A stretch of DNA of 64,000 bases from an uncultured Spirochaetota bacterium (GCA_963783575.1 CAWAOD010000009.1:1-64000); one strand, 5' to 3'. Shown: positions 31,418-60,425, counted from the first letter of the stretch. Numbers and translations: made by a program. The notes: a model not told the origin generated them from the sequence alone.

Positions 31418-31509
31418 TAATGGAGAAACCCGGCAGAACGGTTTGCTTATATTGCAAATATCCGTCCGATGAATTATAATTTTACAATTAGCAGTTGGAG
31501 GGCTGGAGA

Positions 31510-32104: not shown

Positions 32105-32147
32105 TATTTTTATACTGAATTTTACTTTACTTATTGGCTATTGTTTT

Positions 32148-40077: not shown

Positions 40078-41802
40078 ATGATTACAAAAGAATCTTTAAG
40101 TAAAATTAAACTCAATATAGTTCTGACGATATTTCTGTCCAACTTCTTCGTCCTGGCATCAAGTAAATTCTACGATGCTTTATTCAGCAATTATTTTGAT
40201 TCCATAACTGCAAGTCTGTTATTCAGATTTCTTAATATATTTGATCCGCTGGTATTTTCTGTTTTTATTGTAATGGCTATTTTCACAAGTTTTGTTATAT
40301 TAAAATATTTAAAATACCTTTTCATTTTCCTGGAAAAAGAAAAAGAGTATGATAAAGCAAGAACTGCGACCGTTAGTATTCCATGGATTACACTGGTTGT
40401 TCAGACAATATTCTGGGGCCTTGGGGCAACGGGATATTACATTATTAATAACTGGCATGCAGATAACGGCATTCCCTACGGCTGGGAGCTGCTGCTTAAA
40501 GTAAGCACGGGTATTGTCGGTTCTTTATATACATCCCTTGTTATCAACATCATATTAATGAAATCAAAAGCGATGTTGAATATGACGGACATACGCCCGG
40601 GGGAAAATGATTTGTTCACCAGGGTCAAAGATTATTTAATTATATTTGGAATCTCTTTTTATCTGGTCATAAATATATCTTACCGCGCTTATTACACAAT
40701 GAATGCGGTAAAAACCCAGGATGGCGGGCTGTTTATCATTGGTACCATTCTTTCAGGCATTTTCTTCTTTGCGGTCTGTTTTGGACTTATAATTCTTTCA
40801 AAAAAAGAGTACAATTATCAGCTTAAATACTTAAAAGAAAAGCTCGGTGAAATTTCAGAAGGAAACATTGATCTTTCAAAGAGAATATTTTTGATAAACT
40901 TTGATGAAATCGGCGAACTGGCTGTCAATGTAAATAAGGTAATCGGAAACATTGAGATTTTGATAAAGAATATTGAGAAATCAACAAAGGAATTATATAA
41001 GTCAACACAAAACCTATCTGTTTCATCAAAGGAGATTTCGGCCACATCAACCCAACAGGCTGCGTCTGTGAAAGAAATAGTCTCTACAATGGAAGACACA
41101 GACCTTTTGTCCAAACAGGTTTTAAAATCCATAGGCGATGTTGTAAAAAATGCTACCAACACAAAATACAATGTTGAAATAGGAGTATCGATTGTAAAAA
41201 ACAGCCAGAATAAAATGTTTGAAATCAAGGACAAAAATAATGAAACCTTAACCGGAATCAAATCACTTGTTGATAAGATCGAAAGCATCTGGGATATTGT
41301 CACTATTATTAACGGTATTGTGGAACAGACCAGGATCATTGCCTTTAACGCGGCATTGGAAGCGATTTCCGCGGGAGAAGCCGGCAAGAATTTCCAGATA
41401 GTTGCTAACGAAATTAAACGCCTTGCGGACAATACAATGGCATCCACTCAGGAAATAAAGACAAAAATAAATGAGATTCAGCATTCTTCAAGCGATTTAA
41501 TCATAGTATCGGAAGATGAAACCGAAAGAATCAATGCCGGCTGGGAGTTATCCCACAAACTGGAAGAAGTGTTTAAAAATATCTTGACTTCATCGGAAGT
41601 TTCCGCTACTTCTTCTGAAAATATCGAACTATCGACAAAACAACAGGTATCGGCCTTCGAACAGATCCTGTTAACGTTAAAAGAAATATCGAATGGCATT
41701 GAGAATTTTGTGATTTCCACAAAGCAAACCAGTGAAACAACCGAAGCTTTAAAGATTATGGCAGATAACCTGAATAAAATAATTGAAAAATATAAAGTAT
41801 AA
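40078..41802 (+). CDS. Methyl-accepting chemotaxis protein (multi-TM)
   Basis: FDEIGEL, QTRIIAFNAALEA, AGEAGKNFQIVA. Confidence 0.93.
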   Translation: MITKESLSKIKLNIVLTIFLSNFFVLASSKFYDALFSNYFDSITASLLFRFLNIFDPLVFSVFIVMAIFTSFVILKYLKYLFIFLEKEKEYDKARTATVSIPWITLVVQTIFWGLGATGYYIINNWHADNGIPYGWELLLKVSTGIVGSLYTSLVINIILMKSKAMLNMTDIRPGENDLFTRVKDYLIIFGISFYLVINISYRAYYTMNAVKTQDGGLFIIGTILSGIFFFAVCFGLIILSKKEYNYQLKYLKEKLGEISEGNIDLSKRIFLINFDEIGELAVNVNKVIGNIEILIKNIEKSTKELYKSTQNLSVSSKEISATSTQQAASVKEIVSTMEDTDLLSKQVLKSIGDVVKNATNTKYNVEIGVSIVKNSQNKMFEIKDKNNETLTGIKSLVDKIESIWDIVTIINGIVEQTRIIAFNAALEAISAGEAGKNFQIVANEIKRLADNTMASTQEIKTKINEIQHSSSDLIIVSEDETERINAGWELSHKLEEVFKNILTSSEVSATSSENIELSTKQQVSAFEQILLTLKEISNGIENFVISTKQTSETTEALKIMADNLNKIIEKYKV

Positions 41803-47566: not shown

Positions 47567-49420
47567 ATGGGAAAAAAAATCCTTTTGGTGGATGATTCGG
47601 ACGTAGTTGCAGGAATAATGACTGAAACACTGAACGAAGAAGGTTTTGAGATTATCAGGGCTGTAAATGGAGTCGATGGAATCATAAAAGTATATAATGA
47701 GATTCCTGATTTAATTATTACCGATGTGGAAATGCCGCTTTTAAAGGGCTATCAGGCAAGCCGTCTTTTAAAAAACAGAAGAGGTGTAAAAGATATACCT
47801 ATCATCATGCACACGTCTCTTTCCGAGGATAAAGACCAGTTTTGGGGAATTTCCGCTGGAGCGGACGATTATGTTGTAAAGGATTTCAACCATCTGGATA
47901 TAATAATCGCAAAATCTAAAGAACTAAGCAATCATCCTCCTTACCAAATTGAAATGATTAAAGAAGATGCTCCAAAGATAAATCAGAATTCAATCTTTGA
48001 AATGCTAAGCAATCTTCTGGACACTCAGCTCTTTCAGTCAATAATTTTAAATGAACTTGCGGATATCGGGAAAAATATAGAATCTTTGAAGGATACCGTC
48101 TATGAAATTATGAAGCTTCTCGATAAAGTGTGCGAACACCACATAATAGTAATGTTCTTAATAAACAATAAAAACTTTGTTCCATTTATACTGCCTTCCT
48201 TAAACTTGTTTGAACATGATGTAGAAGATTTTTATAAAATATGTCTGGGTGACTTCTATCATTTTTTTGATAAAAAAGCTGTTAGTGAAGAAAAGGAAAC
48301 GATATTCGGTATCAATGGCCGGAAAGATTATCATAAAATCAGGCTTGATCAGAATAAAATCAGTTCTTATACCTGCCTTGAATTAAAGGGAAAAGGCAGC
48401 GTAAATATCGGAACAATTCACATAGGTCATTTTAATAATAACTATTTTTCGGAATCAATCCTTGCGAATCTCTCGGTTTTTACCAAGGGGGCTGGCATCA
48501 TCCTTGAAAATTCACTGCTATTACAGCAGATAACATCAATGGAAAAGAACATCCGAAGTGTTTTTTCAAAATTTGTGCCTGCTGATATCATAGACGACCT
48601 TGTAAAAAGAAAATCCACATCCTCTCTGCTGATGGGAGAAAAAAGAAATGTCGCCGTTTTATTTTCTGATATCCGTTCTTTTACCAGTATTTCGGAATAT
48701 AACAAACCGGAGGATGTAGTAGCCTTTTTAAACATCTATTTTGAAATTATGTGCAAAATAATTGTCAGGAACGGCGGAACCATTGATAAATTCATCGGCG
48801 ACGCAATACTTGCAGTTTTCGGAGCGCCGAAAAGCTATGAAGACAATGATTACAGGGCTGTGAAGTCCGCAGTAGAAATGATTCAATCGATAAAAAAAGT
48901 CGTATACCCGAAAGTCAAACTTCCCCCTAACGGCTTTGAAATAGGAGTCGGAATTAACGGAGGCGATGCTATTGTCGGAAACATCGGGTCAAGGGATAAA
49001 TTCGATTATACCGTAATCGGGGATACCGTAAATCTGGCATCACGCCTGGAAGGATTAACAAAACATTATAAACAAAAAATAATAATTTCCGATACTGTTA
49101 TGGAAAAAGTTAAAGGGCTTGTCTTGACGAGAGAAATCGATACCGTAAAAGTCAAGGGAAAGGATGAATCCACAACAATTTATTCTGTGGAAACCGAAAA
49201 CAATCCGGCGGTTAATGAAGACGCTCTTAAAAATTACTCAAAAGGTTTATCAATGTATAAAATCAAAAACTGGAAAACCGCGATTGAATATTTTCAGGAG
49301 ACATTGTCAAAAAAGCCTGATGATAGTATTTCCAGAATATACATCGAACGCTGCGAAGGTTATTTGAAAAACCCGCCTCCCGCCGATTGGGACGGGATAG
49401 AAGTTCTGGATTTTAAATAA
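47567..49420 (+). CDS. REC - linker - class III adenylate cyclase - TPR-like tail
   Basis: REC; FSDIRSFT, DKFIGDA, DYTVIGDTVNLASRLE (K/D adenine-type residues). Confidence 0.93.
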   Translation: MGKKILLVDDSDVVAGIMTETLNEEGFEIIRAVNGVDGIIKVYNEIPDLIITDVEMPLLKGYQASRLLKNRRGVKDIPIIMHTSLSEDKDQFWGISAGADDYVVKDFNHLDIIIAKSKELSNHPPYQIEMIKEDAPKINQNSIFEMLSNLLDTQLFQSIILNELADIGKNIESLKDTVYEIMKLLDKVCEHHIIVMFLINNKNFVPFILPSLNLFEHDVEDFYKICLGDFYHFFDKKAVSEEKETIFGINGRKDYHKIRLDQNKISSYTCLELKGKGSVNIGTIHIGHFNNNYFSESILANLSVFTKGAGIILENSLLLQQITSMEKNIRSVFSKFVPADIIDDLVKRKSTSSLLMGEKRNVAVLFSDIRSFTSISEYNKPEDVVAFLNIYFEIMCKIIVRNGGTIDKFIGDAILAVFGAPKSYEDNDYRAVKSAVEMIQSIKKVVYPKVKLPPNGFEIGVGINGGDAIVGNIGSRDKFDYTVIGDTVNLASRLEGLTKHYKQKIIISDTVMEKVKGLVLTREIDTVKVKGKDESTTIYSVETENNPAVNEDALKNYSKGLSMYKIKNWKTAIEYFQETLSKKPDDSISRIYIERCEGYLKNPPPADWDGIEVLDFK

Positions 49421-49511
49421 TTAACCGGTCGAGTAGAAGAATAAGCGATGGAATTTAGATTGATAAAAATATTTTCTCCATTTACTCTCATTTGTTAACG
49501 AATATTAGGGT

Positions 49512-49783
49512 GAGAATATAAAGCTGTTTCAAGCTTTGGATTTCATTGCGGAATTGACTCAACATATCCCGCCGAATGGAAAGCAGGAAAAATGATGCGG
49601 AAGGTAAACTGGAGAAATTCAAGGCGGCGGATACAGCTCAAGATGTTCCCGTGGAAGAAAAAAGCCCGGAAGATACCAAAGCCGAAAAGAAAAATTCGAA
49701 TCAGACATGGGCCAAACTTATACAAAAGTCTTTGAAGCCTGTGGTGAGCTTGCCGAACCATCGATCCTATGATTTGCCCGAAG
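49512..49783 (+). mobile_element. IS91-family (Y2 rolling-circle) transposase remnant
   Basis: ENIKLFQALDFIAELTQHIPP and WAKLIQK-VFE(V)-DPMICPK, the latter interrupted by a 23-nt REP-like insert. Confidence 0.75.
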
Positions 49784-49795
49784 CTTGCACTGAGC

Positions 49796-49939
49796 TGGCC
49801 TGCCGACGCCGGGATCTCCGGCAGGTAGACAGCAGACAGGTCGAATGTGTGAGTTTTGGATTGCATTTTTTTTGTTTTTTTTGATTATTTTATTGCAATT
49901 TTTTATTCAGTTAATTACAATTCTTCCTATCAGTCAGTT
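49796..49939 (+). repeat. 144-bp element end with promoter and oriIS-like motif, copy 1
   Basis: Near-identical to 53082-53225; TTGCAA(49893)-17-TACAAT, then TCTTCCTATCAGTCAG. Confidence 0.85.
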
Positions 49940-49978
49940 TGATTAATATCTCTAAAAAAGTATTTTTGGAGGGTATTT

Positions 49979-51643
49979 ATGTTAATAAAATTATGTGAAT
50001 TAGTTTTTCCAGTTGCCTTCATTATTCTGCTCGTTTGCTGCAGTATGTCGCCTTCATCTCCCTCATCGGGGAGTAGCTCGTCATCCGGCGACACAAATAT
50101 ATCGGCCCTCATAAACAGCGTGCCCGAATTTTCGCTTAGCACCCCTGCTACAAACATCTCAACCAACACTAATATCGGATGCAGCACCAATACTACGACA
50201 AACGGCACCGCCATAGCGGACACACTATGGGTTACCAACGCCGTGAATTACAGCCTGTCGGCTGACCCGAGCACTTTCGTCCTCTTCAACCCCCTGGCCA
50301 GCGTCTTATGGCCCGGCGACCTTGTCCAGGGCAATTCGCTTTCCGCCGTCCCCAACCCCGTGCCTGTGACAAACAGGGCGCCGATGACAGTCACCCTGGC
50401 GATAGTAGGCGGCGGATCCAACACCTATTCACGAACCGTTATCCCGACACTGGCTTCGATCAACCAGGCAGAAAATGATATTCTGGCTTCATATGGCGGA
50501 GGTACACCCGCGAACATCTCGTTCAGCGTCAGCCAGGTCTATAACGCGAGCAGCCTGAACTTTATGCTCGGCGGGGCTTACAGCGGCGGGACTTATTCCC
50601 TGGCCGCCCAGTTCAATATCGACTGGAGTGCGGTTTCCCAGGTGGTAGTCGTTAAATTGTCCCAGAACTTCTTCACCATGGCCGTCACTCCCCCGCAAGG
50701 TATCGGGGGCTGCTTCGGGCCTGGCACCACCGTTGCCGAGATCAGCCCATATACCGGGCCAGGCAACCCCATGTGCTATATTGACAGCGTCACCTATGGA
50801 AGACTTTTCTATCTTATCTATACGACTTCCTCTACATCTCTTAACCTTGCCGACGCCATCGGCTTCGGATATAACGGCGGGGTCGTAACAGGTTCAGTCA
50901 CCAATAACACACAGTTCAATAGCGCCATGAGCAACGTCAATGTCCAATTCTACGCCATGGGCGGGGATTCCTCGCTCGGGTTCAGTGTCGCACAGGCCAA
51001 ATCCATAAGCGGGATTTTAAGCATCCTCGGCAACAATGTCACTTTTTCTTCAAACAACGTCGGGGTGCCGGTCTCGTACACCGTCCGCTACCTTAAGGAC
51101 AACAGCCTTGTAGCCATGAACAGCACTACGAGCTATACTGTCAATCAGGCTACCCCGTACTCTCTTGGCAATTCGTATACAATGTCCGGCTTTGAAGTGC
51201 AATTTGTATCGACATACGCCACAGATGGATGGCTTAACGGCGATTTCCTGTGCCATCTGAGACTGGTAACAAACGGCGTGTTATTACCGAATCAGGCAAC
51301 CGGTGCGACCGGCAATATGGATTATTGGGTTGATGGATGGTATAGTGACAAACAGACAAAAGATGTTTCGTCGCCTTTTCAGACCACTGTTTATTTAAGG
51401 AATGACGGGAATGATACTTTGTCATTTCTAGCAAGTTTCATGGATTATGCTGGCGGCGATGCACCAACTGTAGAGTATGACTTTAAATATGACGCTACAA
51501 GACAAGCGTGGTACTGTGATAAAGACGGTGGTCTAGCAATAGTACCTAACGCTCCCCTGAACGTGGGAATTAAGGCATCTTGGTCTGGATTCGCAGGTGT
51601 TATTGATGGGTTTTCATTCAATTGTAGTATTACCCCCCAGTAA
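49979..51643 (+). CDS. Thiol-activated cytolysin family (CDC-like) lipoprotein
   Basis: LLVCC lipobox; LWPGDLVQG, QNFFTM, YIDSVTYGRLFY, GVPVSYTVRYLKDNS; no undecapeptide. Confidence 0.85.
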   Translation: MLIKLCELVFPVAFIILLVCCSMSPSSPSSGSSSSSGDTNISALINSVPEFSLSTPATNISTNTNIGCSTNTTTNGTAIADTLWVTNAVNYSLSADPSTFVLFNPLASVLWPGDLVQGNSLSAVPNPVPVTNRAPMTVTLAIVGGGSNTYSRTVIPTLASINQAENDILASYGGGTPANISFSVSQVYNASSLNFMLGGAYSGGTYSLAAQFNIDWSAVSQVVVVKLSQNFFTMAVTPPQGIGGCFGPGTTVAEISPYTGPGNPMCYIDSVTYGRLFYLIYTTSSTSLNLADAIGFGYNGGVVTGSVTNNTQFNSAMSNVNVQFYAMGGDSSLGFSVAQAKSISGILSILGNNVTFSSNNVGVPVSYTVRYLKDNSLVAMNSTTSYTVNQATPYSLGNSYTMSGFEVQFVSTYATDGWLNGDFLCHLRLVTNGVLLPNQATGATGNMDYWVDGWYSDKQTKDVSSPFQTTVYLRNDGNDTLSFLASFMDYAGGDAPTVEYDFKYDATRQAWYCDKDGGLAIVPNAPLNVGIKASWSGFAGVIDGFSFNCSITPQ

Positions 51644-51727
51644 CGATAGGTTATCGAGCATCTTCAGGGAGTAAGAGTTGGGATTATAACTTTGTTTGCT
51701 TCAGATAAATTTTCAAACTCAATTTAT

Positions 51728-53058
51728 AGGATACAGTTTATGAAATTATGAAGCTTCTCGATAAAGTGTGCGAACACCACATAATAGTAATGTTCTTAAT
51801 AAACAATAAAAACTTTATTCCATTTATACTGCCTTCCTTAAACTTGTTTGAACATGATGTAGAAGATTTTTATAAAATATGTCTGGGTGACTTCTATCAT
51901 TTTTTTGATAAAAAAGCTGTTAGTGAAGAAAAGGAAACGATATTCGGTATCAATGGCCGGAAAGATTATCATAAAATCAGGCTTGATCAGAATAAAATCA
52001 GTTCTTATACCTGCCTTGAATTAAAGGGAAAAGGCAGCGTAAATATCGGAACAATTCACATAGGTCATTTTAATAATAACTATTTTTCGGAATCAATCCT
52101 TGCGAATCTCTCGGTTTTTACCAAGGGGGCTGGCATCATCCTTGAAAATTCACTGCTATTACAGCAGATAACATCAATGGAAAAGAACATCCGAAGTGTT
52201 TTTTCAAAATTTGTGCCTGCTGATATCATAGACGACCTTGTAAAAAGAAAATCCACATCCTCTCTGCTGATGGGAGAAAAAAGAAATGTCGCCGTTTTAT
52301 TTTCTGATATCCGTTCTTTTACCAGTATTTCGGAATATAACAAACCGGAGGATGTCGTCGCTTTTTTAAACATCTATTTTGAAATTATGTGCAAAATTAT
52401 TCTAAAAAACGGCGGGACAATTGATAAATTCATAGGCGATGCAATACTCGCAGTTTTCGGGGCTCCGAAAAGCTATGAAGACAATGATTACAGGGCTGTA
52501 AAATCCGCTATTGAAATGATTAAATCAGTAAAAGAGGTTTCTTACTCTAAAATAAAACTTCCGCCGAACGGTTTCGGAATAGGAGTCGGAATTAACGGAG
52601 GCGATGCTATTGTCGGTAACATCGGGTCAAGGGATAAATTTGATTATACGGTAATCGGGGACACCGTAAATCTGGCCTCGCGCCTGGAAGGATTGACCAA
52701 ACATTATAAACAAAAAATTATAATTTCCGATACGGTCATGGAAAAAGTTAAAGGACTTGTTCTGACAAGGGAAATCGATACGGTAAAAGTAAAGGGAAAG
52801 GATGAATCCACGACAATTTATTCTGTGGAACCGGAAAATATTGAGGCTAATTATGAAGAAGCTCTTAAAAATTATTCAAAGGGTTTATCCATGTATAAAA
52901 TTAAAAACTGGAAAACGGCAATTGAATATTTTCAGGAAACACTATCTAAAATACCTGATGACAGTATTTCCAGAATATATATTGAACGCTGCGAAGGTTA
53001 TTTGAAAAACCCGCCTCCCGATGACTGGGACGGGATAGAAGTCCTGGATTTTAAATAA
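51728..53058 (+). repeat. Duplicate of the 3' 1331 bp of the adenylate cyclase gene (ORF 51748-53058, REC missing)
   Basis: Collinear with 48090-49420 at offset 3638. Confidence 0.95.
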
Positions 53059-53081
53059 TTTACCCGCCTGCCTGGCCTGCC

Positions 53082-53225
53082 TGGCCTGCCTACGCCGGGA
53101 TCTCCGGCAGGTAGACAGCAGACAGGTCGAATGTGTGAGTTTTGGATTGCCTTTTTTTTGTTTTTTTTGATTATTTTATTGTAGCTTTTTATTCGGTTTA
53201 TTATAATTCTTCCTATCAGTCAGTT
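53082..53225 (+). repeat. 144-bp element end with promoter and oriIS-like motif, copy 2
   Basis: TTGTAG(53179)-17-TATAAT, then TCTTCCTATCAGTCAG. Confidence 0.85.
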
Positions 53226-53245
53226 ATATTGACAAGGAGAACTTT

Positions 53246-54424
53246 ATGAAATCATTATTAATGCTATTTTTTTGTTTTGCTATGTTTTATTTTTCGACAG
53301 GTTATACCACCAATTCTGAAAAATTTTTTGCGGGTCCCTGGATATCAATAGCCTGTTCGACTGACGGCAACCATATAGTGGCCCTTCAGGAGGATGGCGG
53401 TTACACGATATATATATCATCCGACAAAGGGGCTACCTGGAAGAGGCATGAGATCGATGCTAAATACGTGATGGCTGTTACCTGTTCCGATGATGGAAGT
53501 CTTATAGCAGGTTGCTTTAGCGAGGGAGGTGCTTTTGGACATGCCGGAGTTTTTACTTCGAGTGATGGGGGTGAACACTTTATTAAACATAAGTTATCAG
53601 GTTCTAGACTATGGTCATCAGTAACCAGTTCGGCTGATGGTAGTCATCTTGCGGCCTGTCTTGACAATTCTGTAATGAGTTCACCCGATGTTTGGACATC
53701 TGAAGATGGTGGTAATACTTGGACCGAGCATAAGTCGGTTGGATATAGTCGCTGGAAATCAATAGCATGTTCAACTGATGGGAGCAAATTAGTCGTTTGT
53801 GATGCTTTTTCTAACGTCTTATTATCTGAAGACTATGGTGTTAACTGGAACAAAAAACCTCCTTTGACAACTGATTATGAGAGTTTTTTGCATATATCAT
53901 GTTCTTATAATGCAAGTCTCATTGTTTACAGCAGCGCCTTTGCAGGCACAGATAATAATAATAGTGATAATAATAATAAAAGAAACATAAACGTTTATAT
54001 CTCTACTGATGAAGGACTAAACTGGACAAAAAAAATACTTAAGCAAACTGTATTATCAAGTACTTGTTCTTACGATGGCAGCAATATATTCGTATTTAGC
54101 GGACAGATTGGAGATGGATTTATTACCCATGATATCGGTGGTTATATCGATATTTCAACCGACGGAGGAACCAGCTGGTCCGAACAAAAAGCTCCGTTAT
54201 TATGTTGTATAACATGCTCCTCCAATGGAAGCTTTATTGCGGGAGGTGATAGTCATGGCTATATTTATATTTCAACAGATAGCGGGAAAACATGGACCTC
54301 AAATAACACCTACATTCAGAGTGATAGCCTGGCTGTAACGAATAAAGTAGGACAAACAACCAACGAGAACACCCCTGTCCAAAAATTAAAAATAATACAA
54401 AGTTCGCTTAGTAATAAAACTTAG
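53246..54424 (+). CDS. Secreted BNR/Asp-box beta-propeller protein
   Basis: Signal peptide; repeats SxDGGxTW and W.SIACSTDG. Confidence 0.85.
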   Translation: MKSLLMLFFCFAMFYFSTGYTTNSEKFFAGPWISIACSTDGNHIVALQEDGGYTIYISSDKGATWKRHEIDAKYVMAVTCSDDGSLIAGCFSEGGAFGHAGVFTSSDGGEHFIKHKLSGSRLWSSVTSSADGSHLAACLDNSVMSSPDVWTSEDGGNTWTEHKSVGYSRWKSIACSTDGSKLVVCDAFSNVLLSEDYGVNWNKKPPLTTDYESFLHISCSYNASLIVYSSAFAGTDNNNSDNNNKRNINVYISTDEGLNWTKKILKQTVLSSTCSYDGSNIFVFSGQIGDGFITHDIGGYIDISTDGGTSWSEQKAPLLCCITCSSNGSFIAGGDSHGYIYISTDSGKTWTSNNTYIQSDSLAVTNKVGQTTNENTPVQKLKIIQSSLSNKT

Positions 54425-54934
54425 ACGTTACTGCCTAATTATTGTCCTAACGGCGATTTTACATCTCAGGAAATAATAATTAATCCTCGCTATGATTCCT
54501 ACATCCCTAATCTCAAAGATAAATGGCATTTGATAGTTGCTGAAGCTGGCGGTTCATTATGTGCCGATGCCCAGGCTGAAATAAAAAATGGTGAGGCGCA
54601 TGTAATTATCAATTGGAGTAAATTTAATGATCCTTGGAGAGTACAATTGTGTATTTTGCCAATAATTCTTGAAAATGGGAAAACATACAGGCTAAAATTT
54701 GATGCTAATTGTGACAACAATTATAAAATTAAAGTTGGAATTCACAAGATTGAAAAGAATTGGAAACGTGTAACCGAAAGAAGTTTTGATATAGATTCTG
54801 AAAAAAGAACATACTCATTAATTTTTAAAATGGTCGATTCTGCTCAGGATAATTATAGACTTGAATTTAACTTGAACGGCAATAAGGGCAATTTCTGGCT
54901 CTCCAATGTTCATGTTGAAGAATCAATGGAATAA
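54425..54934 (+). CDS. CBM4/9-like carbohydrate-binding domain, in frame with the upstream propeller across one TAG
   Basis: NYCPNGDF...PWRVQL...LENGKTYRLKFDA...RLEFNL; no stop between 54425 and 54932. Confidence 0.7.
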   Translation, partial: TLLPNYCPNGDFTSQEIIINPRYDSYIPNLKDKWHLIVAEAGGSLCADAQAEIKNGEAHVIINWSKFNDPWRVQLCILPIILENGKTYRLKFDANCDNNYKIKVGIHKIEKNWKRVTERSFDIDSEKRTYSLIFKMVDSAQDNYRLEFNLNGNKGNFWLSNVHVEESME

Positions 54935-55215
54935 ATAAGCCAAAAATTTAACGGCAGTAATATATGAACAGGTTTAGTATTAACCCGATAGTTGACCTAT
55001 GCTATCTTGGCGGAAATACTTTAAATTCAATTTAAGATGGTCTGACAGATAGTCGCCGCTCATTTGCGCAGATCAGTGCGCCGAACCGGGGCGGATCTCG
55101 CCCCGCCAGTTCCTCCGCCTGGTCTACCTGGCACAGCCCGAGATGATGGTCAAACTTTAAAATAAGTACCGAAAATATCCCCGTTACGTCAAATATTTTT
55201 CTACTCGAAATTTCG

Positions 55216-55263
55216 TTTTATTGCAGTTTTTTATTCAGTTAATTATAATTCTTCCTATCAGTC
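55216..55263 (+). repeat. Promoter/oriIS-like repeat, copy 3
   Basis: TTGCAG(55221)-17-TATAAT-TCTTCCTATCAGTC. Confidence 0.85.
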
Positions 55264-55290
55264 GCTGTCGGCAAGGTTGTTTCCGGTAAA

Positions 55291-56130
55291 ATGCAATTTA
55301 GGGGGCAAATAATGAACAGGCTTTTTGAATTATTAGATGGTATCGAAATATTCCATCGTATCTTTAAGTTCGCAAGCGTATCATTCATGAACAAGGTCCT
55401 TTTAACATTAATCGGCATATTTTTGCTTGATGTTATTCTTTTTCTTGCATATCCTTTTCTGCCGAAAGACGAATTGGCCGGGATACCACATTACGGTTTA
55501 TTATTAGTCCTGCCGGTTGTGGCAATATGTATTATCATCTGGTATATATTTTACCGGATAAACAAAGCAAGCATGTCATCATTATCCAGAGCGGCAGCCG
55601 ACGGAGATACCCGGAAATGCAGTGAACTCATTGAAAACGGGGCTAAAATTGACGCAAAAACCCTTCTGGGAGATACTGCGATTATTTATGCCGCTATGAA
55701 CGGCCGAAGGGAAACCCTTGAATATCTTATTTCAAAGGGGGCCTCCGTCGATATTTATGATGTCGAACACAAAACTCCGCTCCTCGCGGCAGTTGAATAT
55801 TGCAGCGGACATGAATTAATAGAAATAATGAAAGTATTGCTTGACGTCCATGCTGATACAGAAATTACCGATAATTTGGGAAAAACGGTACTCTGGCATG
55901 CGGTACGCCGGAAAAACGCCGAAGCCGTTAATCTTCTTATCCAAAAGGGCGCCAATGTCAACGCAACATATTGTTCCGATGACAGGTTTAATCAAACGGA
56001 AGTTTATAATCTGGAAATCGATAAAAATTACAGGAGCGTACTCGACGATGTACCGCCGGATGCCCACGAAATAAGGAAGATGCTAATTGATGCAGGAGCA
56101 AAAGAAACATTTCTTGACGGCAAAATCTAA
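55291..56130 (+). CDS. Membrane-anchored ankyrin-repeat protein
   Basis: Two TM segments, then GDTAIIYAA, KTPLLAAV, GKTVLWHAV. Confidence 0.88.
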   Translation: MQFRGQIMNRLFELLDGIEIFHRIFKFASVSFMNKVLLTLIGIFLLDVILFLAYPFLPKDELAGIPHYGLLLVLPVVAICIIIWYIFYRINKASMSSLSRAAADGDTRKCSELIENGAKIDAKTLLGDTAIIYAAMNGRRETLEYLISKGASVDIYDVEHKTPLLAAVEYCSGHELIEIMKVLLDVHADTEITDNLGKTVLWHAVRRKNAEAVNLLIQKGANVNATYCSDDRFNQTEVYNLEIDKNYRSVLDDVPPDAHEIRKMLIDAGAKETFLDGKI

Positions 56131-56421
56131 AACAATATGCAAAGTTGATTGTACAAATATACGAGGGTTAAAATGAATAAAATCTTTATTTCTTCAATTA
56201 AATCAATAATCTTCCAAAAACCTATATAATCAGAACCTACTTGTAGTGGTTCCGTCTTATCCGGTCGCCGGGTGATTTTTGCGAAGTAAAAAATTGCTCG
56301 AGGAGGCCGTCACTAAGCTCCCATCGATACAATCGCTACCGCGATCACACTTCGATAAACTCAGTGCACCGCTCGGGAATCGAAGAAGGCTTTTTTTAAA
56401 TCTCCAATATGTACTAACTGG

Positions 56422-56600
56422 ATCCTCATTGTTTAAGGGTGAAAAAAGAAATGTAGCCGTTTTATTTCCCGATATCCGTTCATTTACCAGTATTTCTAAA
56501 ATTTATATCGAACGCTGCGAAGGTTATATGAAAAACCCGCCCTCCGCCGATTGGGACGGGGTTGAAGTTCTGGATTTTAAATAATTTACCGGTTGAATAG
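56422..56600 (+). repeat. Internally deleted copy of the adenylate cyclase 3' region (copy 3)
   Basis: GEKRNVAVLFPDIRSFTSIS joined directly to KIYIERCEGY...EVLDFK*. Confidence 0.9.
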
Positions 56601-56761
56601 TGGAAAGGTAACAGTATAATTTTTCCTCCCAGTTAGCCATTATTATTCGATATTTTGATAAAAATGAACTGTTGTCTTTTTTTGACAAAAATTCTACTCT
56701 TGAATATATTTCTCAAAGATTAGAAATTAAACTGTAAACTTTAACAGTTTGGGCGGGATTT

Positions 56762-59050
56762 ATGAATAATAATTTTGATGTTGTTGTGATCGGATCAGGT
56801 ATTGGGGGTATGGCTGCAGCGGGTTTATTGGCAAAATTATTAAAGAAAAAAGTATTGGTACTGGAAAGGCATTTTGAACTTGGCGGATTGACGCATATTT
56901 TCAGAAGAGGGAATTATTCCTGGGATGTGGGACTCCATTATGTCGGGGAAATGGGCAATGGGGAAATCCCGAGACTTCTTTTCGATTTTCTGACCGACGG
57001 TAAATTGTCCTGGAATAAGATGCCTTCACCTTTTGAGAAATTTATTTATCCTGATTTCACTTTTGAAGTACCGGATAATCCTGAAAGATATCGGAATAAT
57101 CTAATAGCGCTTTTTCCGGACGAGGAAAAAGCAATTAAACGATATTTCCGGGATATACGAAAGGCAGCAGGCTGGCACATCAGGAACTATGTCATTAAAT
57201 TTCTTCCGTTTATTATTAATGCCTGGATCCGGATGATAAATCTGCCCGGACAAAAACTGGCTCTTACAACCACTGAAAATTATTTTAAAAACCGCTTTAA
57301 AGATAATAAATTAAAAGCTGTACTTGCCAGCCAGTGGGGTGATTACGGCCTTCCCCCCGAAGAAAGCGCATTCGCAATCCATTCGTTAATTGTCACTCAT
57401 TATCTTAAAGGAGGTTATTACCCGAATGGCGGTTCTTCCCGAATTGTGCAAAATATTGAAATGATCGTGGAAAAACAGGGCGGTGAATGCCTGGTAAATC
57501 AGGAAGTACAAGGAGTTATTATCGAAAACAAGAAGGCCGTTGGTGTCCGGGTTCTTGACAGGAATGGTCCTATACCGATAGAAGAAACTTTTTATGCTCC
57601 TATTGTAATATCGGATTCCGGTGCATGGAATACCTATGCAACCCTTATTCCGGATAAATATTCGGAATCGGTAATCAAACGTTTAAAACATATGAATCAC
57701 GGTCATAGCGCAGTTATACTGTTTTTGAGACTAAAGGGTTCTCCGGTGAGCCTGGGAGTTAAAGGTGAAAATTACTGGATTAACGATATTTTTGATCATA
57801 ACGGACTGTCCGGACAAACCCGCCGTTTATTGGAAGGAAATCCTGTAAAATGCTATGTATCCTTTCCTTCAATAAAGGATACGACAACAGAAAATCATAC
57901 TGCGGAAATCATTGCGCTTTGCGACTATGAGGATTTTGCTTCCTGGCAAAGCCAACCATGGAAAAGACGGGAAACAGTTTACTACGAACTTAAAGAAAAA
58001 ATAGCCGGTGGTCTTATAAAACTGGCGGAGAAGTATATACCGGGAATAAAGGGGTTGATTGAATACCAGGAATTGTCCACCCCTTTGACAATGGAACATT
58101 TCACGAACCGGATTAATGGGGTAATGTATGGAATCCCGGCGACTCCAGATCGTTATAAACTTAACTTTCTAAAGATAAGAACTCCCGTTCAAAACATATT
58201 TCTTTGCGGTTCCGATATTCTTTCAGTGGGCATTGTCGGCGCATTGATGGGAGGAGTGGCAACCGTAAGCCATATAATGGGAATGCGAGGTTTTTTCAGG
58301 ATATTGTCGGAAGTCAGAAGATCAAAAAAGATCTATGGTGAAAGTTCATTGAATATTATTCAGCCATTGCATCCAACTAATCGGACCCAGGTTGAAGGAT
58401 GTGTTGATTCTATAGAACAATTGACTGATACAGTCTATGAAATAATATATCAGCTGGAACGGGATGTCCTTTTTTATCCGGGCCAATATGCTAAAATACA
58501 GGTTGACGAAACTATCTGGAGAGAATATTCCATTGTAGAACTTCAAAAACAGCTGCTAAAATTCATAATCGAAACAAGAACGGACGGTCCCGGCTCGAAG
58601 TATATACTGTCATTAAAACCCGGGGACATAAGCCAAATCAGACTTCCATCAGGAGAATTTATTCTTCATGCCGAAGAAACAGGCAAGGTTTTCATCGCAA
58701 CCGGTACAGGCATTACCCCTTTTATACCCATGTTTCAAGAGCTGGCCGACCGGGATTTTCATGATAAGGTTTATCTTTATTTCGGATGCAGGTCCCGGAA
58801 AGATTATTTTATTTCCCGATATATTGATAAATTAAAAAATAAATTAGACTTCCATGAAATAATTTGTCTGAGCCGGGAGGAAAGGAGCGGAAATTTCATC
58901 AAAGGCCGGGTTACCGGCCCGCTGAACAATATACAGGGAAAGCAGATAGATTTTGAATATTATATTTCCGGAAATTCCAATATGATTATGGATGTCTCCA
59001 AACTGCTTCGAAGTAAAGGTGTTAAACGGCTGTATACGGAAAATTATTGA
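56762..59050 (+). CDS. Phytoene desaturase/RetSat-like FAD oxidoreductase fused to an FNR-type FAD/NAD(P) reductase module
   Basis: GSGIGG, WDVGLHYVG, SQWGDYG, STPLT; C-terminal REYSI, ATGTGITPF, YFGCR. Confidence 0.85.
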   Translation: MNNNFDVVVIGSGIGGMAAAGLLAKLLKKKVLVLERHFELGGLTHIFRRGNYSWDVGLHYVGEMGNGEIPRLLFDFLTDGKLSWNKMPSPFEKFIYPDFTFEVPDNPERYRNNLIALFPDEEKAIKRYFRDIRKAAGWHIRNYVIKFLPFIINAWIRMINLPGQKLALTTTENYFKNRFKDNKLKAVLASQWGDYGLPPEESAFAIHSLIVTHYLKGGYYPNGGSSRIVQNIEMIVEKQGGECLVNQEVQGVIIENKKAVGVRVLDRNGPIPIEETFYAPIVISDSGAWNTYATLIPDKYSESVIKRLKHMNHGHSAVILFLRLKGSPVSLGVKGENYWINDIFDHNGLSGQTRRLLEGNPVKCYVSFPSIKDTTTENHTAEIIALCDYEDFASWQSQPWKRRETVYYELKEKIAGGLIKLAEKYIPGIKGLIEYQELSTPLTMEHFTNRINGVMYGIPATPDRYKLNFLKIRTPVQNIFLCGSDILSVGIVGALMGGVATVSHIMGMRGFFRILSEVRRSKKIYGESSLNIIQPLHPTNRTQVEGCVDSIEQLTDTVYEIIYQLERDVLFYPGQYAKIQVDETIWREYSIVELQKQLLKFIIETRTDGPGSKYILSLKPGDISQIRLPSGEFILHAEETGKVFIATGTGITPFIPMFQELADRDFHDKVYLYFGCRSRKDYFISRYIDKLKNKLDFHEIICLSREERSGNFIKGRVTGPLNNIQGKQIDFEYYISGNSNMIMDVSKLLRSKGVKRLYTENY

Positions 59051-59147
59051 ATTTGCGGCAAGTTCAGAAAATATATTACACAAATAATGGCCGTGATCTT
59101 CCAGCTTCATGTTCTGCTCGTCCCCAAGCCGTAGCCAGGCTTCCGCA

Positions 59148-59273
59148 GAATTTTAAGGAGACGTTATAAAAAATACCAGATGATCAAAAATTTATATCAA
59201 GCGCTGCGAAGGTTATTTGAAAAACCCACCTCCCGCCGATTGGGACGGAGTTGAAGTTCTGGACTTTAAATAA
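59148..59273 (+). repeat. Degenerate copy of the adenylate cyclase 3' terminus (copy 4)
   Basis: GCGCTGCGAAGGTTATTTGAAAAACCCACCTCCCGCCGATTGGGACGGAGTTGAAGTTCTGGACTTTAAATAA. Confidence 0.9.
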
Positions 59274-59302
59274 TATCGAAAACATATTTTTGGAGAGAAT
59301 TT

Positions 59303-59896
59303 ATGGCTGAATTGACACCGCCCAGGGACATTCGTTTTATTGAACAAAAGGACCGTGTGGAATGCCGGCTGAAATCCGTACCTGTTAGATCATTTTTCAT
59401 GATTCCTTTCTCAATATTCTGGATGGGATTGATGTTTAAAATATGTTCTACAGGATATCACCCATCTGATTTAAAAATTCTTGCTATTATATGGCTTGTT
59501 ATTTCCTCACCGGGGTTTATTGTATTCTTTATTGGCTTTGGTTCTCTGTTCAATCATCAGTCGATATTTATCACCAATGACCGGATTACTCACTTGAAAA
59601 GATCACTTCCATGGCCCAGCCGGTATCATCTTTTATTGGAAGGATTGACTAATGCGCAATGTATAGTTCGAACATATCAAAGATCTTCACTAAGAAGAGA
59701 GCAAAACCTGGGATTAGCATTTGAACGTTTCGATTATATACTCCGGTTTTTCTTCGGTACTGACAAAAAAACCGATTGGAACATCAACCTTTCCAAGAAT
59801 CAGGCAGAATTCATTGTGAGGTGTTTGCAGGATAAATTTAATCTCCCGGAATCCCTCTCTAAGGATAATATGTCCGATAGTTTCGGCAAAGTTTAG
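59303..59896 (+). CDS. Hypothetical 2-TM membrane protein
   Basis: GGAG RBS, 197-aa ORF with two hydrophobic segments. Confidence 0.7.
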   Translation: MAELTPPRDIRFIEQKDRVECRLKSVPVRSFFMIPFSIFWMGLMFKICSTGYHPSDLKILAIIWLVISSPGFIVFFIGFGSLFNHQSIFITNDRITHLKRSLPWPSRYHLLLEGLTNAQCIVRTYQRSSLRREQNLGLAFERFDYILRFFFGTDKKTDWNINLSKNQAEFIVRCLQDKFNLPESLSKDNMSDSFGKV

Positions 59897-59932
59897 AATA
59901 ACTAAAGAAGACTTTATAAATAAGAGGTTAGT

Positions 59933-60425
59933 ATGAATATTTATAAGAAGATCGCCCTTGTAGCTCATGACAATAAGAAAAAGGGACTTATCGAATGGCT
60001 TGAATTTAACTGGAAGAACCTGATTCAGCATAAACTGATCTGCACCGGAACGACCGGAATGCTGGTGGAAGAGGCTCTTAAAAAAAAGCTTAAAGAGGAA
60101 AACAATACCCACGAGCACTATGATATTGTCAAACTGAAATCAGGCCCGCTGGGTGGAGATCAACAGCTTGGATCTATGATAGCGGAAGGACTGATTGATA
60201 TGATAATATTTTTATGGGACCCTATGGAGCCTCAGCCGCATGATGTGGATGTCAAAGCCCTGCTTCGTATTGCCGTAGTATATAATATCCCGACTGCCTG
60301 CAACCGTTCAACGGCGGATTATCTGATTTCTTCTTCCTTTGATTTCTTCTTCCTTAATGAACGAAAAGTATACCCCAATAATGGAAGACTACAGCGGTTA
60401 TATCCACCGTGAATTCAGTCTTTAA
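59933..60425 (+). CDS. mgsA: Methylglyoxal synthase, C-terminus frameshifted by a 16-bp duplication
   Basis: IALVAHD.KK, TGTTG, SGPLGGDQQ, PHDVDVKALLR. Confidence 0.93.

What the first reader, a model, noticed from the sequence alone, without database searches (positions are those of the whole stretch)
47567..59896. Integrase-free gene-capture array anchored on the 3' end of a chemosensory adenylate cyclase (ISCR/complex-integron-like layout)
Seen: the cyclase 3' end occurs four times (ending 49420, 53058, 56584, 59273), and each is followed by unrelated cargo. The order is AC1-IS91 remnant-ori/promoter-CDC-like toxin-AC2-ori/promoter-propeller/CBM4-ori/promoter-ankyrin-AC3-degenerate ori-RetSat/FNR-AC4-membrane protein-mgsA. 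Copies differ in 5' extent and decay outward, which suggests successive events. Known: ISCR1 (IS91 family) co-mobilises flanking DNA, and its circles recombine into the integron 3'-CS to give 3'CS-ISCR1-cargo-3'CS. Inference: the same process may build a chromosomal cassette array here, with a signalling gene tail as the homology anchor and a complete cyclase always kept in front.
Basis: partly seen in the sequence, partly recalled or inferred. Interest (0 to 1): 0.9.

Follow-up and report, generated by a model that had tools for sequence, protein, structure and literature searches.

The report
Gene-tail scars marking serial DNA insertions
Behind an intact signalling gene of an uncultured spirochaete lie three left-over copies of that gene's tail with foreign genes between them, most likely scars of repeated insertions guided by sequence homology and not by a dedicated enzyme; this is a curious variant of a known process, seen so far in one genome only.

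Summary
The 3' end of a receiver-domain adenylate cyclase gene occurs four times (ends 49420, 53058, 56584, 59273) and nowhere else in the 4.9 Mb genome. Unrelated, co-oriented cargo lies between the copies: a CDC-like cytolysin, a BNR propeller with CBM4_9, an ankyrin protein and a CrtI/RetSat-FNR fusion.

The array carries no recombinase domain in any frame. AC1 and AC2 form a mosaic. About 540-620 nt are virtually identical, then about 710 nt differ by 12% with dS 0.63 and dN/dS 0.06. The tails are therefore alleles that diverged as working genes, not in-situ decay.

My best reading (about 0.5) is serial, homology-anchored insertion at the end of a conserved che operon, Campbell-type or homology-facilitated illegitimate recombination. 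Each event displaces the old tail. This resembles rhs C-terminal displacement and T6SS effector-immunity arrays.

The ISCR/IS91 part is weak:
- The "ori" is a portable sigma-70 promoter and leader found before genes elsewhere, with no IS91 target tetranucleotide beside it.
- The IS91-like remnant occurs in one unit only and has marginal support (E 0.12, from a relative's copy).
- No intact IS91 transposase was found, though those searches had silent controls.

No comparator genome or read data could be obtained, so misassembly and population variation remain untested.

The parts
47567..49420 (+). AC1: intact 617-aa response-regulator receiver plus class III adenylate/guanylate cyclase with a TPR-like tail; last gene of the cheB-cheR-cheA cluster
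   Evidence: Pfam Response_reg 1.1e-23 and Guanylate_cyc 5.2e-27. Orthologues with the same cheA-cyclase order in G001/L001 (81% aa) and G006/L002 (75% aa).
48101..48717 (+). Block of AC1 virtually identical to AC2 (51739-52355): a recent duplication or gene-conversion tract
   Evidence: Differences between the copies lie at 48097, 48100 and 48179, and the next is at 48718. 3 of 91 differences fall in the first 628 of 1337 nt, binomial P 7e-21.
48718..49794 (+). Divergent patch: the 3' half of AC1 (12% different from AC2) plus 368 nt that AC2 lacks; bounded on the left by the identical block and on the right by the REP-like element
   Evidence: 88 differences in 709 nt. dS 0.63, dN 0.039, dN/dS 0.06 over 241 codons. 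The 368-nt stretch is unique apart from one short remnant match.
49558..49794 (+). Decayed fragment resembling the C-terminal region of an IS91/ISCR-family transposase (weak support); frameshifted and cut at both ends
   Evidence: Related fragments at G000:C3:30280-30390 and G011:C4:239987-240151. The G011 copy reads ...AWVRLIQKVIEVDLMACPKCGS and its best NCBIfam match is ISCR clade Ia transposase, E 0.12, profile positions 433-465 of 509. The window copy has no match in Pfam, NCBIfam, the protein database or plasmids.
49795..49842 (+). REP-like GC-rich hairpin element (copy 1), part of the 145-nt intergenic module B1
   Evidence: 32 copies in the genome by blastn, including the 2 in the array. 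It differs from copy 2 at 1 of 48 positions.
49888..49935 (+). Promoter and leader element p1 (TTGCAA-17-TACAAT, ending TTCCTATCAGTC), 44 nt before the cytolysin-like gene
49979..51643 (+). Cargo 1: 554-aa CDC-like (thiol-activated cytolysin family) lipoprotein-like gene, foreign by composition
   Evidence: Pfam PF01289 6.6e-36. GC3 0.58 against 0.27-0.44 in neighbouring genes. 0 of 11 other family genomes have a match at E<=1e-10. The nearest Atlas clusters are cytolysin-family, commonest in Myxococcota and Bacteroidota (a lead only).
51728..53064 (+). AC2: 5'-truncated cyclase copy with an intact 436-aa ORF (51748-53058) lacking the receiver domain; its left junction with the cargo lies at an imperfect microhomology, AGGATAC
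53081..53225 (+). Module B2: REP-like hairpin, 45-nt spacer and promoter/leader p2, starting 22 nt after the AC2 stop codon
   Evidence: 94.5% identical to 49795-49939. Differences by part: REP 1 of 48, spacer 1 of 45, promoter 6 of 48.
53246..54424 (+). Cargo 2a: 392-aa BNR/Sortilin-Vps10-type propeller protein
   Evidence: Pfam. 1 of 11 family genomes has a partial match at 35% identity.
54530..54934 (+). Cargo 2b: CBM_4_9 domain ORF without a good start; possibly the broken C-terminal part of cargo 2a
   Evidence: Pfam CBM_4_9 4.8e-09. The reading of the sequence upstream of the ORF is my own.
55216..55263 (+). Promoter/leader p3, 28 nt before the ankyrin gene. A variant GC-rich hairpin at about 55072-55109 lies upstream
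   Evidence: p1 and p3 differ at 2 of 48 positions, p2 and p3 at 4 of 48.
55291..56130 (+). Cargo 3: 279-aa membrane-anchored ankyrin-repeat protein
   Evidence: Pfam Ank_2 4.1e-21.
56262..56389 (+). Dispersed short repeat with a terminator-like hairpin, between the ankyrin gene and AC3
   Evidence: Copies on C16, C11 and C6 and in G011. Terminator-like site at 56257-56275.
56422..56600 (+). AC3: two joined cyclase pieces (matching 48619-48693 and 49325-49436), an internal deletion between 8-nt repeats; the tail reading frame is intact
56682..56710 (+). Separate promoter-like site, TTGACA-17-TATATT, before cargo 4; not homologous to the 48-mer
   Evidence: 11 of 12 consensus matches, the best in the region.
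56762..59050 (+). Cargo 4: 762-aa fusion of a CrtI/RetSat-like flavin oxidoreductase with an FNR-type reductase
   Evidence: Pfam and NCBIfam. The best family homologues are 34-35% identical and lack the FNR part.
59150..59274 (+). AC4: last 125 nt of a cyclase allele, with the final 29 codons in frame
59303..60412 (+). Distal flank: a 197-aa membrane ORF of no known family and mgsA
   Evidence: An mgsA paralogue (87% aa) lies on C12.

Best explanation
The locus is a recombination-scar array. The cyclase is the last gene of a conserved che cluster, and gene order differs between related genomes beyond it. DNA from diverged relatives that spans the cyclase and whatever lies behind it has homology on one side only. 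Such DNA has entered at least three times. One end recombined homologously inside the cyclase, which keeps a full-length gene whose 3' part may be the donor's. The other end joined illegitimately, or a circle integrated by a single crossover. Each event pushed the previous 3' end downstream as an orphan, so the newest unit lies next to the gene. Later homologous exchange among the repeated modules (cyclase tail, REP-like hairpin, promoter/leader) made the copies mosaic. No dedicated recombinase is needed, only RecA-type recombination plus DNA uptake or transfer. Each cargo gene is transcribed from its own sigma-70-type promoter. What is shown: the repeats, the mosaic, the selection signature, the foreign composition of cargo 1, and the absence of recombinase domains. 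What is inferred: the order of events, the entry route, and one-sided homology as the cause.
For: (1) All three orphans keep the exact 3' end with the stop codon and are cut at the 5' side at different points. (2) AC1 and AC2 are a sharp mosaic. 3 of 91 differences fall in the first 628 nt and 88 in the last 709 nt (P 7e-21). (3) The divergent half has dS 0.63 and dN/dS 0.06. Among the four tails pS is 0.28-0.62 against pN 0.014-0.072. The copies therefore diverged while under selection as working genes, as alleles of different lineages would, and not as dead duplicates. (4) The four tails are closer to each other (6-15 differences in 87 nt) than to the orthologues in G001 and G006 (21-30 differences). 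Donors would thus be close relatives. (5) Cargo 1 has GC3 0.58 against 0.27-0.44 around it. The three cargo proteins searched have no close homologue in 11 other genomes of the family. (6) No recombinase or transposase domain occurs in 13 ORFs or 74 further frames. The nearest of 15 tyrosine-recombinase matches is at C9:589280. (7) Synteny ends exactly at the cyclase stop in all 3 genomes that hold the che-cyclase cluster (G000, G001, G006), and each has different genes after it. (8) The AC2 left junction lies at an imperfect microhomology, AGGATAC..TATGAAATT. (9) comEC and dprA are present; this is weak evidence because both are widespread. (10) The same logic has been proposed for T6SS effector-immunity arrays and for rhs orphan 3' regions (passages of PMC5361080).
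Against: The evidence comes from one metagenome-assembled genome (89.85% complete, 4.91% contamination). No intermediate forms, donors or circles have therefore been seen. Module B1 is far more similar to B2 (REP and spacer differ at 2 of 93 positions) than the adjoining cyclase halves are. A simple one-step import does not explain this, and extra conversion or patch-replacement steps are needed. The divergent patch 48718-49794 could be an ordinary allelic replacement unrelated to how the array formed. Three cargo genes join the same promoter/leader within about 4 nt, which hints at some site preference that pure illegitimate joining does not predict. Homology-facilitated illegitimate recombination is rare where it has been measured (PMC5361080 passages).
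Confidence: 0.5

Rival explanations
1. An IS91-family element sat behind the cyclase. Rolling-circle transposition that missed its terminator produced circles carrying the cyclase tail, the element and adjacent cargo. These circles then recombined into the resident cyclase tail, as ISCR1 circles do with the integron 3'-CS.
For: Unit 1 has the layout anchor - transposase-like remnant - outward promoter - cargo - partial anchor copy. This parallels 3'CS - ISCR1 (with POUT promoters in its oriIS region) - variable gene - 3'CS (passages of PMC6218425). The related remnant in G011 has ISCR clade Ia transposase as its best NCBIfam match, at the right profile position (433-465 of 509), E 0.12. Its sequence...WVRLIQKVIEVD..CPKCG, resembles the C-terminal motif of IS91-family transposases as I recall it; that motif comes from no call.
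Against: The remnant is in 1 unit only and is absent between the AC2 tail and B2, where 16 nt stand in its place. It is cut at both ends, so the 48-mer is not its natural downstream end. The 48-mer occurs before genes elsewhere in the genome and in another genus with no transposase beside it. 0 of 3 copies abut CTTG, GTTC or GTCC, and no subterminal palindrome is conserved (rule). No longer relative of the remnant was found in 35 genomes of the order, in the protein database or in plasmids. No Y2_Tnp or Zn_Tnp_IS91 match was found in G000, though both controls were silent, so this last point is weak.
Confidence: 0.12
2. Tandem site-specific islands. Integrative elements whose attP mimics the cyclase 3' end inserted one after another at an attB in the tail, as phage 21 and e14 do in icd (recalled). 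Their integrases were later lost or act in trans.
For: An intact gene in front with orphan tails behind, newest first, is what tandem accretion at a 3'-end attB gives. AC4 (125 nt) has att-like size. A 28-nt block is conserved in all four tails. The genome has 15 tyrosine-recombinase matches, several of them in repeated paired sets.
Against: No integrase or remnant of one occurs in any unit. AC2 carries 1.3 kb of gene homology upstream of any plausible core, and AC3 carries a piece from 700 nt upstream; site-specific insertion does not produce this. The units are small (2.7-3.6 kb) and lack any other mobile-element genes. Conservation of the 28-nt block is equally explained by the protein motif.
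Confidence: 0.1
3. Old tandem paralogues. The lineage once had several full-length cyclase paralogues in a row with other genes between them. Three lost their 5' parts by deletion, and gene conversion made part of AC1 and AC2 identical.
For: Purifying-selection divergence is also expected of long-lived paralogues. The genome holds many cyclase paralogues. Gene conversion between neighbouring paralogues is seen elsewhere in the window (32176-32830 against 34081-34735, 98%). A cyclase-tail-like sequence exists on its own at C9:510468-510698.
Against: G001 and G006 each have a single cyclase and no tail remnants within 10 kb downstream. All three truncations removed the 5' side and kept the exact 3' end, which random deletion does not predict. 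AC2's truncation point abuts a gene of foreign composition.
Confidence: 0.13
4. Assembly artefact. Strain variants of one locus in the metagenome were concatenated, or a foreign fragment was joined in.
For: The genome is a metagenome bin with 4.91% contamination and two contigs of about 50% GC. Read support could not be checked.
Against: The assembly resolves about 30 copies of a 1.7-kb insertion sequence at about 99.5% identity in contigs of up to 743 kb. A 620-nt identical block should therefore not confuse it. The junctions are specific, with cargo starting 25-44 nt after a shared promoter. Each unit has its own diverged tail, which concatenated haplotypes of one locus would not give in this order.
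Confidence: 0.08

Closest known systems
rhs 'C-terminal displacement' and Vibrio cholerae T6SS effector-immunity arrays, proposed to arise by homology-facilitated illegitimate recombination (Kirchberger et al. 2017, PMC5361080, passages read; Jackson et al. 2009 seen only as a reference cited there)
   Same: An intact gene sits in front and orphaned 3' pieces are strung out behind it. New material enters next to the gene and shifts older material outward. The homologous anchor is on one side only. No integrase is involved. The orphans resemble alleles of other strains.
   Different: In those systems the displaced 3' parts are the variable toxin tips with immunity genes, and selection for immunity explains why they are kept. 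Here the displaced part is the conserved tail of a signalling enzyme, the payload is unrelated genes inserted between the tails, and nothing obvious selects for keeping the orphans.
ISCR1 in complex class 1 integrons (Lallement et al. 2018, PMC6218425, abstract and passages read)
   Same: The layout anchor - transposase region - outward promoter - variable gene in the same direction - partial second anchor copy matches unit 1. Cargo is driven by a promoter supplied by the upstream module.
   Different: There is no intact transposase. The remnant occurs in one unit only. The promoter element is not an IS end by the tests available: no target tetranucleotide, and copies stand before ordinary genes. 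The anchor is a chromosomal signalling gene, not the 3'-CS.
Prophage or island insertion into the 3' end of a gene with a substitute 3' end, such as phage 21 and e14 in icd of Escherichia coli (recalled; no paper read here)
   Same: The gene stays intact because the incoming DNA brings a diverged copy of its 3' end, differing mostly at synonymous sites. The original end remains as an orphan at the far side.
   Different: Those elements encode an integrase, and their duplications start at a defined att core of about 100-200 nt. Here there is no integrase, and the duplications reach 1.3 kb with different left ends.
Integrons
   Same: A co-oriented array of unrelated genes that grows at the end nearest a fixed point.
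   Different: No IntI, no attI and no attC sites are present. A separate repeat array with AAC...GTT-ended repeats beside a truncated tyrosine recombinase lies on another contig (C5) and shares nothing with this locus.

Membership tests
IS91/ISCR rolling-circle element | HUH Y2 transposase gene (Pfam Y2_Tnp, Zn_Tnp_IS91) | tested here: not met
   No such domain in 13 ORFs or 74 further frames of 49.4-59.9 kb. Only a 79-codon fragment is present, with no family match. Its relative in G011 matches an ISCR transposase model at E 0.12.
IS91/ISCR rolling-circle element | oriIS end with subterminal palindrome, abutting the target tetranucleotide CTTG/GTTC/GTCC (PMC13181058 passages) | tested here: not met
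   The bases after the 48-mer are AGTT, AGTT and GCTG (0 of 3 match). The 8-nt palindrome ATTGCAAT is present in 1 of 3 copies.
IS91/ISCR rolling-circle element | Intact copies of the element in the genome or in relatives | tested here: inconclusive
   PF04986 and PF14319 found nothing in G000, but their controls rang in 0 of 14 genomes. The remnant peptide found only 2 further fragments in 35 genomes of the order. Nothing longer was found in the protein database or in plasmids.
Integron | IntI integrase with attI, and cassettes each ending in an attC site | tested here: not met
   No Phage_integrase match nearer than C9:589280. There are no inverted-repeat sites at the cargo ends (one search lists only 2 weak inverted pairs). 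The attC-like repeat family of C5 has no copy at 47-60 kb.
Site-specific integrative island at a gene 3' end | Integrase in the element, and a direct repeat that starts at a fixed att core | tested here: not met
   No integrase. The left ends of the repeats lie at 48090, 48619 and 49290 in AC1 coordinates.
Homology-anchored displacement array (HFIR or Campbell-type accretion) | Intact gene followed by 5'-truncated orphan copies that all keep the 3' end | tested here: met
Homology-anchored displacement array (HFIR or Campbell-type accretion) | Orphans are diverged alleles acquired by transfer, not in-situ duplicates | tested here: met
   dN/dS 0.06 at dS 0.63; pS much greater than pN for all 6 tail pairs. 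The test does not by itself exclude long-lived paralogues.
Homology-anchored displacement array (HFIR or Campbell-type accretion) | Recombination breakpoint inside the anchor and microhomology at the non-homologous joint | tested here: inconclusive
   A sharp breakpoint lies between 48180 and 48717. There is a 7-nt plus imperfect microhomology at 51728-51747. Later gene conversion could give the same picture.
Homology-anchored displacement array (HFIR or Campbell-type accretion) | Simpler intermediate forms and donor arrangements in other strains | not testable with these tools
   No other genome or contig with this tail was found.

The most novel reading that the evidence does not exclude
The locus is a working, recombinase-free gene-capture site. 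It uses the conserved tail of the last gene of an operon, a REP-like hairpin and a portable 45-nt promoter/leader with sharp edges as reusable homology modules. Any DNA from relatives that carries one of these modules can then be added and expressed at once. The same portable promoter, found before unrelated genes here and in another genus, would be the expression adaptor of this system. Arrays of this kind would then be expected at other synteny breakpoints of transformable bacteria.
Probability: 0.2. Interest if true: 0.65.

Novelty: new variant of a known kind. Interest (0 to 1): 0.4.

Why it matters
If the reading is right, the array shows that ordinary homologous recombination at the edge of a conserved operon can build an ordered, expressed array of foreign genes. 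This is something usually credited to integrons, ISCR elements or integrases. Orphan gene tails would then serve as a datable record of successive acquisitions. It would extend the 'displacement' model, known from rhs and T6SS toxin loci, to a housekeeping-type signalling gene. It also suggests a simple genome-wide signature, 5'-truncated copies of a gene lying downstream of the intact gene, for finding such hot spots. As it stands this is one locus in one metagenome bin, so its general value is unproven.

Tried and rejected
- **Comparator loci.** The cyclase protein scan of genome contigs gave only 2 distant relatives, neither with an array. The metagenome contigs protein scan and a degenerate tail pattern both gave nothing. 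The tail 28-mer was found in 0 of 400 other Spirochaetota genomes. DNA of the whole interval against 40 relatives matched only the cheA-cyclase part in 2 genomes, plus scattered short repeats.
- **Reads.** One run was listed, with a 0.05 share of the sampled words. The laying call returned an error and used the cap, so no read evidence exists for or against the assembly, variants or circles.
- **IS91 remnant.** Pfam, NCBIfam, the 5.8-billion-protein search for longer proteins (twice) and tblastn against plasmids (twice) gave nothing. The one exception was a single E 0.12 match for the G011 copy.
- **Plasmid or phage origin of the cargo.** blastn of 49421-57400 found no match in either collection.
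- **Genome-wide screen for the same phenomenon.** 286 local direct-repeat pairs were listed. The one locus I inspected (C5 199-223 kb) is a paralogue family with shared upstream regions, not tail orphans. The rest were not examined.
- **Contig C12 as a co-binned donor lineage.** Rejected, because it carries the same insertion sequences as the rest of the genome.
- **GTT-type integron core at the promoter/cargo joint.** Considered and rejected: p3 lacks it and there are no attC partners.
- **Silent-cassette antigenic variation** (as in vls or tprK). Considered and rejected: the copies differ little in protein (95.6% identity) and dN/dS is 0.06.

Full report
**Setting.** The window is the first 64 kb of contig C9 of a 4.9 Mb, 18-contig, 37% GC genome bin (89.85% complete, 4.91% contamination). 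Its nearest named relatives are MAGs of uncultured Spirochaetota. The finding lies directly behind a cheB-cheR-cheA cluster.

- The repeat finder and a self-BLAST of the window both show the 3' end of the cyclase gene four times:

| Copy | Coordinates | Description |
|---|---|---|
| AC1 | 47567-49420 | Complete 617-aa protein with receiver and cyclase domains (Pfam) |
| AC2 | 51728-53064 | 1337 nt, 93.2% identical to 48090-49426; intact 436-aa ORF without the receiver domain |
| AC3 | 56422-56600 | Two pieces matching 48619-48693 and 49325-49436, joined at an 8-nt repeat |
| AC4 | 59150-59274 | The last 125 nt |

- A 152-nt tail query finds only these four places in the genome.
- A 28-nt tail pattern with up to 3 mismatches finds 4 sites in this genome and none in 400 other Spirochaetota genomes.
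A membrane ORF of no known family and mgsA follow. All lie on the + strand.

**What the repeated 'ori/promoter' is.** The 145-nt module found twice (49795-49939 and 53081-53225) has three parts.
- The first 48 nt are a GC-rich hairpin element with 32 copies in the genome, that is, a REP-like dispersed repeat.
- A 45-nt T-rich spacer follows, seen only in these two copies.
- The last 48 nt, present a third time at 55216-55263, read TTGCAA-17 nt-TACAAT (or TATAAT) and end with TCTTCCTATCAGTC.
- A profile of the three copies finds 13 sites in the genome at E<=1. All 13 are followed within 150 nt, on the same strand, by the start of an ORF of at least 80 aa. The figure for random positions is 812 of 2000 (0.41^13 is about 8e-6).
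- A 91% identical copy in a genome of another genus (G011) stands immediately before an RBS and ATG. It lies behind a helicase-like gene (by its start as printed, not run against a family library), with no transposase nearby.
- Conservation stops sharply at ...TATCAGT in all copies.

I read this element as a promoter with its first transcribed bases. Its spacer is conserved too, so the copies share descent and are not merely convergent. It is not an IS91 origin by the available tests. IS91-family oriIS ends abut a CTTG, GTTC or GTCC target tetranucleotide and carry subterminal palindromes (passages of PMC13181058). Here the next bases are AGTT, AGTT and GCTG, and no palindrome is conserved. 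The site before the RetSat-like gene is an unrelated TTGACA-17-TATATT match, not a degenerate copy.

**The 'IS91 remnant'.**
- The 368 nt that separate the AC1 tail from the module (49427-49794) contain a 79-codon open frame at 49558-49794.
- It has related fragments at G000:C3:30280-30390 and G011:C4:239987-240151.
- The window copy matches nothing in Pfam, NCBIfam, the large protein database (longer proteins) or plasmids.
- The G011 copy translates to ...AWVRLIQKVIEVDLMACPKCGS. Its best NCBIfam match is 'ISCR element clade Ia family transposase' at E 0.12, profile positions 433-465 of 509.
- This agrees with my recollection of the C-terminal motif of IS91-family transposases, which is not a tool result. 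It remains below significance.
- The fragment is cut at both ends and frameshifted in the window, and it is present in one unit only. At the AC2 tail, 16 nt stand in its place.
- No Y2_Tnp or Zn_Tnp_IS91 match was found in the genome, but both searches had silent controls and prove little.

**No recombinase in the array.** None of the 13 ORFs or the 74 further stop-to-stop frames of at least 45 codons between 49421 and 59932 matches any integrase, resolvase or transposase family at E<=0.01. The genome has 15 tyrosine-recombinase matches; the nearest is at C9:589280.

**The key evidence is the pattern of differences between AC1 and AC2.**
- The alignment has no gaps. Of its 91 differences, 3 lie in the first 628 nt (at 48097, 48100 and 48179) and 88 in the last 709 nt, starting at 48718. 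The chance of such a split under uniform divergence is 7e-21.
- In the divergent half there are 65.3 synonymous and 21.7 non-synonymous differences, giving dS 0.63, dN 0.039 and dN/dS 0.06.
- The last 87 nt of all four tails behave the same way. pS is 0.28-0.62 and pN is 0.014-0.072 in all six pairs.
- The four tails differ from each other at 6-15 positions, and from the orthologues of G001 and G006 at 21-30 positions.

The orphan tails are therefore not decaying duplicates of the resident gene. They are copies that diverged for a long time under selection as parts of working genes, in lineages closer to this genome than its nearest sequenced congener. The identical block shows a very recent duplication or conversion.

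**The cargo looks acquired.**
- The CDC-like gene has GC3 0.58, against 0.27-0.44 for every neighbour.
- It has no match at E<=1e-10 in 11 other genomes of the family.
- Its nearest Atlas clusters are cytolysin-family proteins, commonest in Myxococcota and Bacteroidota (a lead only).
- The propeller has one partial 35% match in 11 genomes.
- The oxidoreductase fusion has only 34-35% matches, which lack the reductase part.

**Context in relatives.** Only two of 40 related genomes hold the cheA-cyclase pair. Both have a single cyclase and no tail fragments within 10 kb downstream. Each is followed by different genes: a multi-pass membrane protein, an NHL-repeat-like lipoprotein and aconitase/sdh in G001; and a pirin- and katG-containing set in G006 (labels by eye from the translations). 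The G001 downstream genes lie on another contig in this genome. Gene order thus breaks exactly at the cyclase stop codon in all three genomes.

**Best explanation.**
- DNA from a diverged relative that spans the cyclase and its own downstream genes has homology to this chromosome on one side only.
- Integration could occur by a homologous crossover within the cyclase with an illegitimate joint nearby, or by a circle integrating through one crossover. Either route keeps a complete cyclase, inserts the donor's downstream genes and leaves the former 3' end behind them.
- Three such events, newest nearest the gene, give the present order and the increasing structural decay outward.
- The AC2 left joint lies at an imperfect microhomology, AGGATAC..TATGAAATT.
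- comEC and dprA are present, which allows DNA uptake but proves nothing.
- The same mechanism, with the same absence of an integrase, was proposed for orphan immunity-gene arrays in V. cholerae T6SS clusters and for orphaned 3' regions of rhs genes (PMC5361080, passages read).

**What does not fit neatly.**
- The REP and spacer parts of the two B modules differ at 2 of 93 positions, while the adjoining promoters differ at 6 of 48. Promoter 1 is closer to promoter 3 (2 of 48) than to promoter 2. The modules are therefore themselves mosaics, and further exchanges must be assumed.
- The divergent patch 48718-49794 is bounded on the left by the identical cyclase block and on the right by the multi-copy REP element. 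It could be a simple allelic replacement laid over an earlier duplication-with-insertion.
- Three cargo genes join the promoter/leader within about 4 nt of each other. That is more regular than illegitimate joining predicts, and it keeps some site-specific or element-end explanation alive.

**Rivals.**
- The ISCR-like model fits the layout of unit 1. ISCR1 is known to carry outward promoters in its oriIS region that drive the adjacent variable gene (PMC6218425). The model fails the tests listed above for the other units and for the 'ori'.
- Tandem site-specific islands would need integrases, of which no trace remains. They cannot explain 1.3 kb of gene homology upstream of any core.
- Old tandem paralogues would explain the selection signature. 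They would not explain the consistent loss of 5' parts, the single-copy state in both relatives or the foreign gene at AC2's truncation point.
- A misassembly is unlikely given how well the assembly resolves about 30 near-identical 1.7-kb insertion sequences. It could not be tested with reads.

**Limits.** Everything rests on one bin. No second instance of this tail, no intermediate form, no donor and no circle were seen. The literature comparison rests on passages of three papers and two search listings. I did not search for a prior description of cyclase-tail arrays as such, so I do not claim that none is in print.

**Verdict.** The ISCR/IS91 mechanism is mostly not supported. The locus is best filed as a new variant of homology-anchored displacement arrays. 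Interest is moderate.

Noticed in passing
G000:C5:457400-480000 (L021 = C5:456500-470500): A C-terminally truncated tyrosine recombinase (L021 944-1603, a 219-codon open frame ending ...YIQELLGT) is followed by at least 7 copies of a repeat of about 250 nt (82-95% identical) at irregular spacing of 0.7-10 kb, with small ORFs between. The repeat starts ..AACAGCGGCTATA and ends TATAGCCGCACCGTT, so its ends are inverted and of the AAC...GTT type, as in integron attC sites, but the unit is unusually long. Further copies lie on C10, C4, C12, C16 and C9.
   Followed up: partly
G000:C9:510468-510698: A stand-alone 73-codon ORF (MISREKMEMLKYYNKGL...YIERCDVF..PPEDWDGV...) is 44% identical to the cyclase tail. 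It lies behind flgK, an insertion sequence, flgL and a third, 159-aa ORF (flg labels by eye from the ORF starts; no family search was run on them). The 'tail' may therefore be an independent small domain.
   Followed up: partly
window 32148-33650 and 34062-35837 (- strand): Two neighbouring genes share a 655-nt, 98.3% identical 3' end (32176-32830 against 34081-34735), while the 5' parts show no match in the window self-BLAST. This is another local case of 3'-end homogenisation. The genes at 38296-39930 and 40078-41802 share a 71% identical 3' part.
   Followed up: no
window 49888-49935 and 12 other sites in G000; G011:C2:1003175-1003219: A promoter/leader element of about 45 nt with a conserved spacer and sharp edges stands before unrelated genes in two genera. 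It is a candidate 'mobile promoter'.
   Followed up: partly
window 54425-54934: The CBM_4_9 frame is open upstream of its TTG start (it reads ..NGDFTSQE..) and has no good start codon. The propeller and the CBM may be one gene broken by a stop or frameshift, or by a sequencing error.
   Followed up: no
G000, genome-wide (for example C12:87990-89705, C12:19698-22235, C12:18643-19698): There are at least three high-copy insertion sequences: about 1.7 kb with roughly 30 copies at about 99.5% identity, about 2.5 kb with roughly 14 copies, and about 1.07 kb with roughly 5 copies. One 1.7-kb copy abuts a REP-like hairpin (C15:173560 next to 173579).
   Followed up: no
G000:C5:3402-4858, 15009-16465, 30933-32380; C15:6573-8020, 26288-27747: Five repeated sets of two adjacent tyrosine-recombinase genes sit inside large repeated blocks of 2-6 kb. 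This is probably a multi-recombinase mobile element in several copies.
   Followed up: no
G000:C7 (48,955 nt, 52% GC) and C17 (13,132 nt, 49% GC): Two contigs have a GC content far above the 36-39% of the rest. They may be contaminants or foreign replicons in the bin. They hold no relative of the CDC-like gene.
   Followed up: partly
G000:C12:54568-54975: A second mgsA copy (87% aa, 76% nt identity to window 59933-60412) has a REP-like hairpin next to it.
   Followed up: no
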